Below are positions 34,205-48,092 of a DNA stretch of 63,238 nt, piece by piece. The notes beneath the pieces were generated by a model. That model ran no database searches, was not told the DNA's origin, and saw only the letters and a list, made by a program, of their open reading frames with translations. Position 1 is the first letter of the stretch. The number at the start of each line of letters is the position of its first letter. This DNA is from Pristiophorus japonicus (lineage: Eukaryota), in NCBI RefSeq assembly GCF_044704955.1, contig NC_091999.1:48174763-48238000 (forward strand), given 5' to 3'. The translations under genes were made by a program, and so were the position numbers.

Positions 34205-34358
34205 TATTTTGCCAGAGACGTTTCTCTGCAGATCTCTAAATTGTGACTACGTTTACCGGTTTAACCATCTCTGGGCTGCAGATGACTGGACCTGCAGTTT
34301 ATTAACGTGCCCTGGCACTCACAGTGATGGAACTCAGTTCAACCCTCATACAGAACCT
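34205..34358 (+). pseudogene. TCR alpha/delta-type V segment remnant (FR3) with 23-spacer RSS
   Basis: RFSADL*IVTTFTGLTISGLQMTGPAVY*RALA versus shark TRDV/TRAV-type FR3 RFS.EL....FTSLTISGLQLTDSAVYYCAL. Followed directly by CACAGTG (34320-34326), a 23-nt spacer and ACAGAACCT. Confidence 0.7.
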
Positions 34359-34659
34359 CCCGCCACTTTGTAGATCTTGGCTCCGACTGCTGAAGTCGTA
34401 TATAACGGCGGGCAGATCCTGCCACATTGGTTCCTGTGAGCCGACACACACTGAGATGGACCCAAAGGACAGTATCCTTTATGAAGGGCTCACAATAAAC
34501 TGATTTCTTAATACTCGTGGCAATGTCCTGCAGAGCCAATCAATTGGGCAGGTTGAGTATCTTAGCGACATGCACGAAGCAGAAGCCAACTGGTTGCAGC
34601 TAAAGTTAATTGTGAGAACAGAATGACAACATTCGCTGGCATCGCCTCGAATCTAGAAT

Positions 34660-34880
34660 CAGAACATTAAGCCTGTGCTGGCACTTTGAAAGAGCTATCG
34701 TATTAGTCCCACTCTTTTCCTAAAGCCCTGCAATTTTCTCCTTTTAGATATTTAACTAATTCCCTTTTTAAAGTTAATATTAATTCTTTTCCCCACTCTT
34801 TCACGTAGTATATTCCTGATCAAACCTGCATCAATAAATTCGGCCCTTTTCACCTCAGGCTCCTTTTCCAATTTGCTTAA
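34660..34880 (-). mobile_element. Old CR1 3' remnant
   Basis: Degenerate reverse 3'UTR and ORF2 end (agccctgcaattt..aattccctttt). Confidence 0.5.
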
Positions 34881-35054
34881 ATCAGAAATCAAACATCAGG
34901 AAATATGTTTGTCCCTGGTACTAACTTCAACTGAGTTGCGTACCTGGATTCCGTGGATGACGCCATAATCCCTCGCATACATCATAGCACAGTGATTGGC
35001 TGTTTCTTCGAAGGTGACTGCCGTATCCGCAGGAGTTGTTCACTGATTTCACGT

Positions 35055-35230
35055 TGATAGTATCAGAAGGAATGGCGCAGAGCAGGAAGACAGAATCCTC
35101 AGGGTGATGTTCAGTGAGTTCAGGGAGATGGTATCAGAAGGAATGGAGCAGAGCAGTGAGAACAAATCTGTGGGTGATGTTCAGTGAGTTAAGCGAGATG
35201 GTATCAGAGGGAATAGTGCAGAGCAGACAG
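35055..35230. repeat. ~71-bp tandem repeat x2.5
   Basis: gatggtatcagaaggaatggagcagagcag...ggtgatgttcagtgagtt recurs. Confidence 0.7.
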
Positions 35231-35274
35231 AAAGGCAGTCCAGGGAAGAGGTGACAGCGGGTCGTGTTTAACGT

Positions 35275-36076
35275 GAGATCATGCACTTTGGCAGAAAAAA
35301 ATCAAAGAGACAGTTATTATTTAAATGGAAAAAGATTGCAAAGTGCCGCAGTTCAGCGGCACCTGAGGGTACTTGTGCATGAAGCACAAAAGGATGATAT
35401 GCAGGTACAGCGAATGATCAGGAAGGCCATTGGCATCTTAGCCATTATTGTGAAGAGAATGGAGTATAAAAGCAGGGAAGTCTTGCTACAGTTATACAGG
35501 ATATTGGGGAGGCCACACCTGGAACTGTGTGCGGTTTTGGTTTACATATTTATGAAAGGATATACTTGCTTTGGAGGCAGTTCAGAGAAGGTTCACTCGG
35601 ATGATTCCGGAGATGAGGGGGTTGACTTATGAGGAAAGGTTGAGTAGTTTGGGCCTCGACTCATTGGAATTCAGAAGAATGAGAAGTGATCTTATCGAAA
35701 TGTATCAGATTATGAGGGGGCTTGACAAGGTGGATCCAGAGAGGATGTTTGCACTGATGGGGGAGATTAGAACTGGAGGGCATGATCTTAAAATATGGGG
35801 CCGCCCAATTAGAACAGAGATGAGGAGAAATTTCCTCTCTAAGAACGTTGTAAATGTCTGGACTTCGCTGCCTCAGAGAGCCGTGGAAGCTGGGACATTG
35901 AATAACCTTAAGATAGAAATAGACAGTGTTTTAAACGATAAGGGGCTATGGGGAGCAGGCAGGAAAGTGGAGCTCAGTCCATTATCATAACCGCCATGAA
36001 TGGCAGAGCAGGCTCGAGGTGCAGTATGGCCTACTCCTGTTCCAATTTCTTATATTCTTATGTTTTTATGTATGTT
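35275..36076 (+). mobile_element. CR1 3' fragment
   Basis: RPHLE, EAVQRRFTRMIP, LEFRRMR.DLIE; ttcttatg tail. Confidence 0.9.
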
Positions 36077-36499
36077 CCTCATAATGGAGAACGGTTGGCA
36101 GTGATAACCCTACGCATTTCTGTCCGTATGGACCATATGCATTCAGGTGACCTTTAAAGAGTTGAATCGTAAACGAAACTTACATTCTACGAATGCCCTC
36201 CCAGAGAGGAGGATGTCAATCATATATTTGGGTAGAACAAAACGACAATGATTTTACATCAGAAATTGATATTGCCCGTGCATCACACATTTTGTATATA
36301 GGTGCCCAACGGGCACAAAGCTCCATATGTACCTGCAGATGCCGCGTGAACTCTCATCTCCTCTCTGTCAAAGAAAATCTCTCCACCTGTCGTCTCTTTC
36401 TTGGCTTTCTATATGTGTATAACAGAAACATTGGAGCGCGTGTCTGTGTGTCAGTTAGGCCCCAGTTTGTGGGAATCATTCCAAGAGTTTGTGCTCTCT

Positions 36500-36825
36500 A
36501 GTGTGTCTGGAAGTGTTTGATGGGACAGTATAGAGTGAGCTTTAATCTGTATTTAACCAGTGCTGCTCCTGACCTGGGTGTGTTTGATGGGACGGTGTAG
36601 AGGGAGATTTATTCTATATTTAACCCGTGCTGTACCTGCCCTGGGAGGGTGTGGTGTGCAAGTGTAGATGGAGCTGTTCTCTGTATCTAACCCGTACTGC
36701 ACCTGCCCTGGGAGTTTTTGATGGGACAGTGCAGAGGGAGCTTTACTCTTTATTTAACCTGTGTTGTACCTGCCCTGAGAGTGTTTGTTAGGACAGTGTA
36801 GAGGGAGATTTGCTCTGACACATAC
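36500..36825. repeat. ~67-bp minisatellite x~5 (GTGTTTGATGGGACAGTGTAGAGGGAGCTTTACTCTGTATCTAACCCGTGCTGTACCTGCCCTGGGA)
   Basis: Five aligned units. Confidence 0.9.
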
Positions 36826-45719: not shown

Positions 45720-46225
45720 GCAACATAGGAACAGGAGGAGGCCATTCAGCCCATCCATCCTGTCCCGCAATCCAGTTAGATCAGGGCTGATCTACAGTCA
45801 ACACCATATTCCCGCCTTAGTTCTGTAACACTTGATAATCTTGCCTAACAAAAATCAATCAATCTCAGTTCTGAATTGAAACCAAACTTCAGCAGCTTTT
45901 GGAGAGGGAAATCCAGACTTCCTGTGAAGAAATCCTTCCTGACATCACTTCCGCACGATCTCGCTCTAATTTTAAGATTCTGCTATTTGTTCTGGACTTT
46001 TCCGTCAAAGGAAATAATTGTTCTATATCTACTTGATCAATTGTATTTATCTACTTGAACACCTCAATTGTATCACCTCTTAATATTCTCTGCTCGTCTC
46101 CTCATCATTTTATTTTATTAGCTCCGGTATCATTCGGATAAACCTGCACTTTACCGCCTCCATGACCAGTATGTCCTTCCTGAGGTGCGGAGCCCAGAAT
46201 TGGACTCAGCGCTCTGAATAGGGTA
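45720..46225 (-). mobile_element. Old CR1 3' fragment
   Basis: acataggaacaggaggaggccattcagccc 3'UTR; reverse QFWAPHLRKDIL. Confidence 0.75.
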
Positions 46226-46409
46226 GATGCCCATTCCAACAGTGGGTTCCTGGACAGTTAGCAGTAAAGGGTTCCAGACTCCGACTGCCGCTCCGTATAT
46301 AATCAGCCAACTCAGGATAAACCTGAGAATAAGGGCACGTTACTCACTGCCTGAAATCAGAGCAGGGGGAAAGCTTCGTTGGCGAGTTTATTAAATCGTG
46401 AACAATGAG

Positions 46410-46835
46410 GAATCCTGAACCAGAAGATCGTGGGTTGAAGTCCCACTCCAGATACTTGATCACAAAATGTAAGCTGTGTCTCCCAGTGCAGTACTGGGGG
46501 CGTGGTGCACTGTCGGAGGTGCCGTCTTTCGGATCACGTGTTAAACCGCGGATCCGTCTGGCCTCTTAGGTGGACGTAAATGATTCCCTGGACCTATTTC
46601 AATGAAAAGCCGAGGACTTTTCCTTCGTGGCCTGGGAATATTTATAGCTCAAAAAACACCACTAAGCAAAATATAATCTGGTCATTATCACACTGCTGTT
46701 TGTGGGAGATTGCTGTGCACTAAATGATTGCTGCACGTTGTACATTACAACTGTGACCACATTTCACAACTTAATTCATTGGCTGGCAAGCGATTTGGTT
46801 TAGACTAAGGTCGCTGAAGGCGCTGTTTCAAGGCA
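46410..46835 (+). mobile_element. DeuSINE (SacSINE1-like)
   Basis: B-box gggttgaagtcccactcca; core gcactgtcggaggtgccgtctttcggat; gctgtttgtgggag; L2-like tail. Confidence 0.8.
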
Positions 46836-46974
46836 AGTTTGTAATCACAAGAATATACAAACTGCATGATTGGAAATTAGGAATAGTTCGGTGCTTTTTA
46901 CTAATTTCAATAAAAGTCCTGACTGAGATCAGCGCTCAGAATGGTCTGTAACCTCTCGGGATTGTGCTTCTTAC

Positions 46975-47292
46975 CCTGAGATCTGGTGAAGTTACGGCTT
47001 TGCGTGACCACTTCATGAGTGACCTAGCAGGTGTAGACCGAGCCGGTGAACCATTCCTCGGCGGGGACTGTCAGCCGACTGGCCGCCGAGAAGTTCCCGT
47101 TCACCTCAAAGACGGGAGAGGTGACGGAGCCAGAATCCAGGAGTTGTCCACTCTCCAGCCAATTCACGGTCAGTGACTTTGGCCGGAAATCGATGATTGA
47201 ACACACGGCGCTTGCATATCTGCTGCTGGTGATTTGTTCAGTAGAACTCAGCGTGAGGAGAACAGTTGGAGGAATGATGTCGCGTTCAGGAT
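46975..47292 (-). pseudogene. IGHM: IgM Cmu2 exon
   Basis: 318-nt phase 1-1 exon: [84 protein letters not shown]. Single TAG at 47024-47026. Confidence 0.95.
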
Positions 47293-47411
47293 CTTCAAGA
47301 GAAGACAAATTATTGACATTGCTTGCAAAATCAATCATTAAGAAATGCAAAGTGTCCTTATATTTTAACAGGTTCCTCGCTGTCAGACTAACACTAACCT
47401 GGCATTTACAG

Positions 47412-47850
47412 AGAGCAGAACTGTGCACAGTCTTCTCAGTGTAATCTGCAGACCGGAACTGTGCATAATATTCTTAGTATGATCTGGAGACCAGAACGTT
47501 ACACAGTATTCCAAGAGTGATTAGGAGACCAGAACTGTAAACAATATTCTTGGTATGATATGGAGACCTGAACTGTGGACAGTATTCTAAATGTGATATG
47601 GAAACCAGAACTGTGCATAATATTCTAAGTATGATAGAGAGACCAGAATTATACACAGTATTTTAATTGTGATATGGGAGACCAGAACGGTGCACAGTAT
47701 TTTAAGTGCGATAGGGAGACCAGAACTATACACAGTACTCTAAGTGTGATCTGGAGAACAGAACTGTACACATCATTCTAAGTGTAATATGGAGACCAGA
47801 ACTGTACACAGCACTCTCAGTGTCGTCTAACCAAATTTCTGTACAAGTTG
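47412..47850. repeat. ~37-bp minisatellite x~11 derived from CR1 ORF2
   Basis: GAGACCAGAACTGTGCACAGTATTCTAAGTGTGAT; reverse complement reads HLEYC.QF.SP. Confidence 0.85.
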
Positions 47851-47901
47851 AACATACCTTCTCATCTTATCACAGTTTGCCCTCTATCCCACATCACTAA
47901 C

Positions 47902-48092
47902 CTGGCATTGTGATGGCCCAGACCGACACACCACGTCAAACCTCGCAGTAGATGGTGCTACTGCACACCTCTGACTCGGTGATGGTTAACCGGCTCTTTA
48001 TCTTTCTTCCAGGAAAGGCTGGTGATTTTATCTTTCTTCCAGGAAAAACTGGTGATTTTGGGGGAGTAGTCCATCGCCAAACAGCGGAAGCA
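47902..48092 (-). pseudogene. IGHM: IgM Cmu1 remnant (5'-truncated, internal duplication and deletion)
   Basis: CLAMDYSPKITSFSWKKDK[ITSLSWKKDK]EP / deletion / SRLTITESEVCSSTIYCEV*RGVSVW...P|gttagt. Confidence 0.9.

What the first reader, a model, noticed from the sequence alone, without database searches (positions are those of the whole stretch)
34205..48092. TCR alpha/delta-type V relic lies ~3.2 kb from an IgM constant-region relic, in convergent orientation
Seen: a V-region FR3 (RFS..LTISGLQ..AVY*RAL) ending in CACAGTG, a 23-nt spacer and ACAGAACCT on the plus strand, with IgM TM2 ending at 37589 on the minus strand. Established: sharks carry many IgH clusters, TRAV/TRDV segments use 23-RSS, and chondrichthyan TCR delta uses Ig-type V segments (IgH-TCRdelta chimeric rearrangements, Ig remnants within the TCR alpha/delta locus). 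Inference: this is either part of, or an orphon copy of, an Ig/TCR-mixed region, and may record how IgH clusters and TCR V segments were co-duplicated. It is the best candidate for something undescribed here, but both parts are dead.
Basis: partly seen in the sequence, partly recalled or inferred. Interest (0 to 1): 0.75.

Follow-up and report, generated by a model that had tools for sequence, protein, structure and literature searches.

The report
Dead TCR half-gene trailing shark IgM
The back half of a broken shark T-cell-receptor V gene, with its cutting signal, lies 3.3 kb past the tail of an equally broken antibody gene (likely IgM); it is likely a dead passenger copied along with antibody-gene blocks from the already described shark region where the two gene families are mixed.

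Summary
34162-34319(+) is the 3' half of a shark TCR alpha/delta-type V. Its only hit among 1.84 billion proteins is a horn-shark V (E 7.6e-4, 55%). A shark-V profile scores it 31.8 bits against at most 7.8 in shuffles. It has two stops, has lost Cys104, and ends in a 23-spacer RSS. It faces a dead IgM-type constant region (CH1 remnant, CH2-CH4, secretory tail, TM1, TM2; no VH, D or JH), 3,269 bp from heptamer to TM2 stop. The 13.9-kb block sits between a GPCR pseudogene and a tRNA array. TCR V exons, V pseudogenes and V-less IgM interleaved on one shark chromosome are already published (Flajnik 2025), though never nearer than 28 kb in that table. This scan found the same thing before on other DNA. 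Unchecked notes give three other places in this genome (two also at 3.3 kb) and dead TCR Vs riding IgM repeats in other sharks. It is most likely a passenger in an IgM duplication unit. I could not read those copies, so co-duplication is inferred. The geometry would allow inversional V-to-D joining, but nothing shows it ever happened. Interest is low.

The parts
34162..34319 (+). 3' half of a shark TCR alpha/delta-type V exon (end of FR2, CDR2, FR3); pseudogene fragment with stops at 34237-39 and 34303-05 and Cys104 codon changed to CGT; no leader, FR1, CDR1 or Trp41 found in the window
   Evidence: phmmer E 7.6e-4 to horn-shark V P0001; profile positions 46-97 of about 98, 31.8 bits, next best 4.7
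34320..34358 (+). 23-spacer recombination signal: CACAGTG, 23 nt, ACAGAACCT
   Evidence: its read-through translation aligns with the read-through of the horn-shark V signal
34359..37588 (.). 3.2-kb spacer between the V signal and IgM TM2; holds a short high-copy repeat piece (about 34670-34750), a 70-bp tandem array (35037-35226), an older LINE fragment (35270-36085) and a 67-bp tandem array (36507-36817)
37589..37597 (-). IgM-type TM2 exon (two codons and stop), AG acceptor intact
37736..37863 (-). TM1 exon, open frame, AG and GT intact
   Evidence: best PDB hits are membrane IgM, E 4e-4
40652..41042 (-). CH4 exon with secretory tail; frameshift near 40890; tail ends Tyr-Gln-stop
   Evidence: tblastn with sawshark IgH model P0021, 87% and 70% in two frames; C1-set E 1.3e-6
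41947..42254 (-). CH3 exon; frameshift near its 5' end, two stops, splice donor not GT
   Evidence: C1-set E 1.5e-5
46975..47292 (-). CH2 exon; one in-frame stop
   Evidence: C1-set E 1.7e-16; 75% to sawshark P0021, 61% to catshark P0022
47902..48090 (-). CH1 remnant: 5' part missing, internal loss with a 30-bp tandem duplication, frame change and stop; no VH, D or JH upstream in the window
   Evidence: tblastn with P0022 residues 1-14 and 37-68
32622..34096 (+). young 5'-truncated LINE (CR1-like; label recalled) directly 5' of the V fragment, 97.8% identical to the copy in the CH2-CH3 intron (43846-45322)
   Evidence: depth of millions

Best explanation
This is a dead 3' half of a shark TCR alpha/delta-type V gene with its 23-spacer signal, lying tail-to-tail 3.3 kb from a dead, V-less IgM-type constant region, and it was likely carried here as a passive passenger of an IgM gene-block duplication. 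Shown: the V identity, the loss of its 5' half, two stops and Cys104, the IgM-type exons with lesions in CH1 to CH4, and the setting between a GPCR pseudogene and a tRNA array. Inferred steps: (1) in the antigen-receptor complex, where TCR V exons lie between IgH clusters, one V came to lie close behind an IgM cluster; (2) the V lost its front half and its frame; (3) the IgM block was duplicated and dispersed along the chromosome, taking the V piece with it at a fixed distance; (4) this copy lost VH-D-D-JH and half of CH1 where it now abuts the tRNA array, and decayed further. The unit would make no protein and no productive rearrangement.
For: Identity: 1 hit among 1,835,955,588 proteins, a horn-shark germline V read-through. 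Against 24 stored V domains, the 8 chondrichthyan TCR alpha/delta-type domains of that family score 73-107 (z 15-21). The other 16 score 19-45: sturgeon, teleost and a second shark TCR V family 36-45, light-chain Vs 30-36, heavy-chain Vs 19-30. One family member is a whale-shark V-J-C model named TCR alpha chain. Half exon only: profile positions 1-45 have no match above the shuffle level anywhere in the window. No VH, JH motif or RSS upstream of CH1. Raw-data contigs of a DNA sample about 1% different from the window cover the listed unique parts from 32390 to 38600 at similar depth (X2 23-31, X3 57-73), so the local layout is in read data. A second version of 34228-34378 (9 substitutions and a 2-nt insertion) keeps both TAA triplets, the CGT and the RSS, so these lesions predate the split of the two versions. 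Published context: TCR alpha/delta V exons between IgH clusters, with 'TCRadV pseudo', 'IgM (missing V)' and 'IgM pseudo?' entries interleaved over about 8 Mb in great white shark (PMC12227049). Leads only, not support: unchecked scan notes describe a TCR V relic behind a dead IgM 24.8, 25.1 and 30.7 Mb before this window, two of them at 3.3 kb, two with a half V.
Against: Co-duplication was not shown here. No genome was held. Look-ups of the earlier findings by DNA and by protein found no look-alike stretch in any window, so the other copies are either under about 90% alike, not indexed, or not the same V. The second version rejoins the main path at both ends and may be an allele rather than a paralogue. 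No second version was listed for the flank 34385-34640 at 80% likeness. No single contig bridges V and TM2; the longest piece is 34094-35123. In the published table none of 16 IgM entries has a TCR-type V nearer than 28 kb, so the 3.3-kb spacing is not a documented general layout; that table rests on gene models, which would miss half-exon relics. Shark TRBV, TRGV, light-chain and NAR V sequences, and shark IgW/IgNAR constant regions, were not compared.
Confidence: 0.68

Rival explanations
1. One-off debris: a dead TCR V and a dead IgM of the published mixed region were brought within 3.3 kb by a local deletion or rearrangement here only, and the like notes elsewhere are independent events.
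For: Interleaving of TCR V and IgM is common on this kind of chromosome. No look-alike stretch was found by sequence among earlier findings. The second contig version may be an allele.
Against: Unchecked notes give the same 3.3-kb distance at two other places, and a facing or opposite orientation and a lost front half as well. Independent events would hardly repeat a distance, and the nearest spacing in the published table is 28 kb.
Confidence: 0.21
2. Fossil of a working hybrid: an ancestral IgM cluster had an intact inverted TCR V behind its constant region, like the inverted V behind TCR delta and beta constant genes, which joined by inversion to the cluster's first D to give a TCR-V/IgM heavy chain.
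For: The geometry fits: a 23-spacer V downstream of the C exons on the opposite strand. PMC12227049 mentions an inverted V after the C exon in TCR beta and delta loci. Ig-TCR exchange of V segments is known in sharks. That shark D1 carries a 5' 12-spacer signal is recalled, not read.
Against: The V lacks leader, FR1 and CDR1 and is stopped in both versions seen. No D or J is left in this copy. The chimeras described in the passages I read run the other way, Ig V onto TCR D-J-C. 97 partial IgH rearrangements in nurse shark stayed inside the minilocus with one possible exception (PMC2435157).
Confidence: 0.07
3. Assembly artefact: a V-bearing and an IgM-bearing piece were joined through one of the repeats in the spacer.
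For: The spacer holds a LINE fragment and two tandem arrays. The window has sized N gaps elsewhere. No contig spans the whole distance.
Against: No gap lies in this interval. Contigs run from the V through the first tandem array into the old LINE (34094-35123, 35106-35301) and out of it again (36032-36541), and the listed unique pieces have similar depth on both sides.
Confidence: 0.04

Closest known systems
TCR alpha/delta-type V exons between IgH clusters in the elasmobranch antigen-receptor complex, AgRC (Flajnik et al. 2025, PMC12227049; read: abstract, sections 6 and 15, all of Table S1, term search in the supplementary PDF)
   Same: TCR alpha/delta V, including pseudogenes, interleaved with IgM clusters, some V-less or pseudo, in mixed orientation.
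   Different: Listed spacings from IgM to the nearest TCR-type V are 28 kb or more in 16 of 16 entries examined, and none is downstream and opposite. Here it is 3.3 kb, a half exon, flanked by GPCR and tRNA arrays. Linkage to TRAC/TRDC or PSMB5 could not be tested.
Shark TRAV/TRDV family of horn-shark XP_067869908 and whale-shark XP_048475117 (TCR alpha chain model)
   Same: FR3 sequence (27 of 47 aligned residues identical to the horn-shark V), RSS register, and similar read-through of the spacer.
   Different: Only the 3' half remains, with two stops and no Cys104. Alpha versus delta use cannot be told; nurse-shark V segments are shared between the two chains (PMC5931798 passages).
Elasmobranch IgM minilocus VH-D1-D2-JH-Cmu (PMC2435157 and PMC4279169, passages)
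   Same: Four C1-set exons, secretory tail, TM1 and TM2 in order.
   Different: No VH, D or JH; CH1 truncated; lesions in CH1-CH4.
Inverted V downstream of the constant gene in TCR delta and beta loci (one sentence in PMC12227049 section 15; gene names TRDV3 and TRBV30 recalled)
   Same: A 23-spacer V behind a constant region on the opposite strand.
   Different: The constant region here is IgM-type, the V is a dead half, and no D or J partner exists.
TAILV and IgH-TCR delta trans-rearrangement (as described in PMC12227049, PMC6795676, PMC5931798; original papers not read)
   Same: Ig and TCR parts are close together in sharks.
   Different: Those use IgH-type V on TCR delta. This V is TCR-type, not IgH-type.

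Membership tests
Elasmobranch TRAV/TRDV segment | V-set sequence closest to TCR alpha/delta V | tested here: met
   weak direct PDB hit to a TCR alpha chain, E 1.6, lost with the shorter query
Elasmobranch TRAV/TRDV segment | 3' RSS with 23-nt spacer in register after FR3 | tested here: met
Elasmobranch TRAV/TRDV segment | Complete exon with leader, Cys23, Trp41, Cys104 and open frame | tested here: not met
   profile positions 1-45 absent, two stops, Cys104 codon is CGT. It is a fragment derived from the family, not a working member.
Elasmobranch TRAV/TRDV segment | Closer to TRAV/TRDV than to shark TRBV, TRGV, IGLV or NAR-type V | not tested
   No shark sequences of those classes were fetched. 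Only one shark VH half, a second shark TCR V family, and non-shark light and heavy chains were compared.
Elasmobranch TRAV/TRDV segment | Lies within reach of TRDD/TRAJ segments in the TRA/TRD locus | not testable with these tools
   No genome held; unchecked notes place TCR V fields about 37 Mb away on the same piece
Elasmobranch IgM cluster | Four C exons, secretory tail, TM1, TM2 | tested here: met
   (as relics)
Elasmobranch IgM cluster | VH-D-D-JH upstream of CH1 | tested here: not met
   No VH, JH motif or RSS between CH1 and the window end: a truncated relic
Elasmobranch IgM cluster | Constant region closer to IgM than to shark IgW or IgNAR | tested here: inconclusive
   TM1 best matches mammalian membrane IgM and the exon count fits, but the two shark relatives fetched carry automatic names and no shark IgW/IgNAR was aligned
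Antigen-receptor complex (AgRC) | Linkage to TCR alpha/delta constant genes and PSMB5 | not testable with these tools
   No genome held
[quoted passage not shown] | IgH-type V sequence | tested here: not met
   Heavy-chain V domains score 19-30 against 73-107 for the shark TCR family
Inverted downstream V used by inversion | V with 23-RSS downstream of C on the opposite strand | tested here: met
Inverted downstream V used by inversion | Intact V and a 12-RSS D or J partner in the same unit | tested here: not met
Inverted downstream V used by inversion | Rearranged transcripts that use it | not testable with these tools
   No RNA holder was listed

The most novel reading that the evidence does not exclude
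A family of shark IgM clusters descends from one ancestor with an intact inverted TCR V 3.3 kb behind TM2, the same layout as the inverted V behind TCR delta and beta constant genes. That V could join by inversion to the cluster's D segments and give TCR-V/IgM heavy chains, the reverse of the known Ig-V/TCR-delta chimeras; some copy in this or another shark may still have the whole V.
Probability: 0.07. Interest if true: 0.65.

Novelty: new member of a known kind. Interest (0 to 1): 0.22.

Why it matters
As it stands it matters little: both parts are dead and the mixing of TCR V and IgM in sharks is published. If the half V recurs at 3.3 kb behind many IgM clusters, it is a handy neutral marker. 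It would show that dispersed IgM clusters descend from one cluster inside the TCR/Ig complex and would let their duplications be ordered, a detail that gene-model tables miss. Only if an intact copy or a TCR-V/IgM transcript turned up would it bear on how antibody and T-cell-receptor loci exchanged V domains.

Tried and rejected
No whole genome was held, so the genome-wide count could not be made. Pfam found no V-set match in 6 of 6 frames of the relic and of 32400-32629, and the word-indexed protein search found nothing among 69 candidates; only the unindexed phmmer did. I tested whether the V's front half was displaced 5' of the young LINE (32400-32620): no tblastn or profile support. An apparent leader exon at 27606 is exon 1 of the GPCR pseudogene, by its frame and splice phase. 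No second V of another family was found with a broad profile. The metagenome scan for shark host DNA gave 3 of 107 candidates, bony-fish-type TRAV contigs by their sequence, of use only for RSS register. No RNA holder was listed; this says nothing on expression. Run X5, same species label but another sample, had no listed cover of the V; a hole proves nothing. Contig depth was not used as a copy number. Look-ups of earlier findings near the window, by sequence and in relatives gave nothing. Eight paper searches ran; none showed, in its listing or the passages I read, a V relic at a fixed short distance behind shark IgM. Ott et al. 2021 was not held, and Deiss et al. 2019 and Criscitiello et al. 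2010 were not read, so absence from print is not established. The supplement of the elephant-shark paper (PMC3964593, Note XI) was not opened and may bear on Ig/TCR linkage.
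Full report
Observation. On the plus strand the frame from 34159 reads as the end of FR2, CDR2 and FR3 of a V domain, with TAA at 34237-39 and 34303-05 and CGT where the Cys104 codon should be. CACAGTG follows at 34320, then 23 nt, then ACAGAACCT. The signal alone is not far from chance: two such sites lie in the window, against a mean of 0.215 in 200 block shuffles. The coding part is not chance. 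An unindexed phmmer over 1,835,955,588 proteins gave one hit, E 7.6e-4 at 55% identity. It is a horn-shark (Heterodontus francisci) germline V model that reads on through its own RSS, and the alignment runs on through the spacer. A profile of 7 chondrichthyan V domains scores the relic at 31.8 bits. The next best place in the window scores 4.7, and the best scores in 10 shuffled windows are 2.5-7.8.

What the V is. The horn-shark V brought in 19 proteins among 34 candidates, led by V domains of horn shark, whale shark, sawshark, sawfish, bamboo shark and elephant shark; two carry the name TCR alpha chain. Against all 24 V domains cut from the stored proteins, the 8 of this family score 73-107. 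Sturgeon, teleost and a second shark TCR V family score 36-45, light chains 30-36 and heavy chains 19-30, with the shark VH half lowest. In the PDB the horn-shark V's best 60 hits mix TCR alpha/delta chains with light chains and multi-domain antibody constructs, so the PDB does not separate the classes by itself. Shark TRBV, TRGV, IGLV and NAR V were not compared. Only profile positions 46-97 match: leader, FR1, CDR1 and Trp41 are not found anywhere in the window, including the stretch 5' of the young LINE. No second V was found with a broad profile.

What the antibody part is. On the minus strand lie a CH1 remnant (48090-47902), CH2 (47292-46975), CH3 (42254-41947), CH4 with secretory tail (41042-40652), TM1 (37863-37736) and TM2 (37597-37589). 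CH1 has lost its front and middle, CH2 has a stop, CH3 has a frameshift, two stops and no GT donor, and CH4 has a frameshift. TM1 is open and best matches membrane IgM. There is no VH, JH motif or RSS upstream of CH1; a tRNA-gene array with a unit of about 3.3 kb begins at 48.5 kb. The closest protein is a sawshark (Pristiophorus japonicus) model that also matches across read-through intron sequence, so the source is likely a sawshark or a relative; this is not established. IgM is likely from exon number and TM1, but shark IgW and IgNAR were not aligned. The heptamer lies 3,269 bp from the TM2 stop. 5' of the V are a young LINE and a two-exon GPCR pseudogene (27606-30441). So a 13.9-kb block, cut inside an exon at both ends, sits between two unrelated multigene regions.

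Read data. Four DNA runs of one sample hold 61-67% of the sampled words of 34100-38500; no RNA holder was listed. I laid 4 of the 7 listed runs and 2. The main contigs differ from the window at about 1 base in 100, so the sample is likely another individual or haplotype (inference). The listed unique pieces from 32390 to 38600 have similar depth (X2 23-31, X3 57-73). Contigs run from the V into the old LINE and out of it, but none bridges V and TM2. A second version of 34228-34378 appears in X1 and X3 with 9 substitutions and a 2-nt insertion. All nine are listed, and none touches the two TAA triplets, the CGT, the heptamer or the nonamer. The V was therefore already dead when the two versions split. 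Whether the second version is an allele or a paralogue cannot be told, since it rejoins the main path at both ends and no second version was listed for 34385-34640.

What is known. Flajnik et al. [quoted passage not shown] They state that TCR alpha/delta-type V exons lie between IgH clusters. Table S1 lists 'IgM (missing V)', 'IgM pseudo?' and 'TCRadV pseudo' interleaved in great white shark. I measured the distance to the nearest TCR-type V for 16 IgM entries: 9 great white, 3 catshark chromosome 17 and 4 stingray. I left out the IgM on the catshark unplaced scaffold, Ig-type V rows and the TCR V-C model; the epaulette sheet has no IgM. The smallest distance is 28 kb, and 0 of 16 are downstream and opposite. 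The table is built on gene models and would miss a half exon. Passages of PMC6795676, PMC5192425 and PMC5931798 describe chimeras of Ig V on TCR D-J-C, not the reverse. PMC2435157 (passages) reports rearrangement staying within the minilocus. PMC4279169, PMC3964593 and PMC8559430 were seen as passages only. Eight searches showed no paper on a V relic at a fixed short distance behind shark IgM, but the key J Immunol and Immunogenetics papers were not readable or not read.

Earlier scan notes (AI notes, unchecked). In this genome, on the same piece, three notes describe a TCR V relic behind a dead IgM, 24.79, 25.06 and 30.71 Mb before the window. Two give 3.3 kb, and two say the V is a half. Others report about 110 IgM copies, blocks fused to zinc-finger arrays, and TCR V fields 36.6-37.8 Mb away. 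Notes on other shark genomes describe dead TCR Vs recurring with IgM repeat units. These moved my estimate for co-duplication from 15% to about two in three, because 3,269 bp here matches their 3.3 kb. I could not read those loci, and sequence look-ups did not retrieve them.

Mechanism and verdict. Most likely (0.68) a TCR V that lay behind an IgM cluster in the mixed complex lost its front half and its frame. It was then copied passively with the IgM block, and this copy later lost its VDJ end. A one-off local juxtaposition is the main rival (0.21). The convergent geometry is that of an inverted V that could join by inversion, which is the boldest reading (0.07), but every version seen is a dead half and no D or J remains. 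Misassembly is unlikely (0.04). This is a new member of a known kind; the only new detail is the short, possibly fixed spacing. Interest 0.22.

Noticed in passing
window 27606-30441 (+): Two-exon rhodopsin-family GPCR pseudogene (short exon 1 at 27606, exon 2 from about 29575 with frameshift and stops; 7tm_1 E 2.8e-11). It resembles the GPR139/142-like genes expanded in sharks (label recalled).
   Followed up: partly
window 48540-63238: Array of diverged units of about 3.3 kb (70-85% alike) holding tRNA-Leu(TAA) and tRNA-Ser(AGA) genes and more decayed tRNA-like copies; it starts about 450 bp upstream of the CH1 break.
   Followed up: partly
window 32622-34096 and 43846-45322: Two LINE copies 97.8% identical, a young family. 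One contig of run X3 leaves the window's sequence at 32622 and runs on for 72 other letters, so the copy beside the V may be absent in that sample (inference; no joint was listed).
   Followed up: partly
window 41295-41258 (-): A second RSS-like site (perfect heptamer, 22 nt, nonamer with 2 mismatches) in the CH3-CH4 intron, with no coding segment before it; probably chance.
   Followed up: no
window 47411-47823: 38-bp tandem array (about 11 copies) in the CH1-CH2 intron; the sawshark model P0021 reads through the end of the same array and intron, so the array is shared by related IgM copies.
   Followed up: partly
window 14235-16130 and 61457-61697: LINE copies with internal inversions or head-to-head joins (also 13244-14236 beside 14235).
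   Followed up: no
P0003 (horn shark model XP_067869829): One gene model holds two TCR V domains of different families in tandem, the second from the same family as the relic.
   Followed up: no
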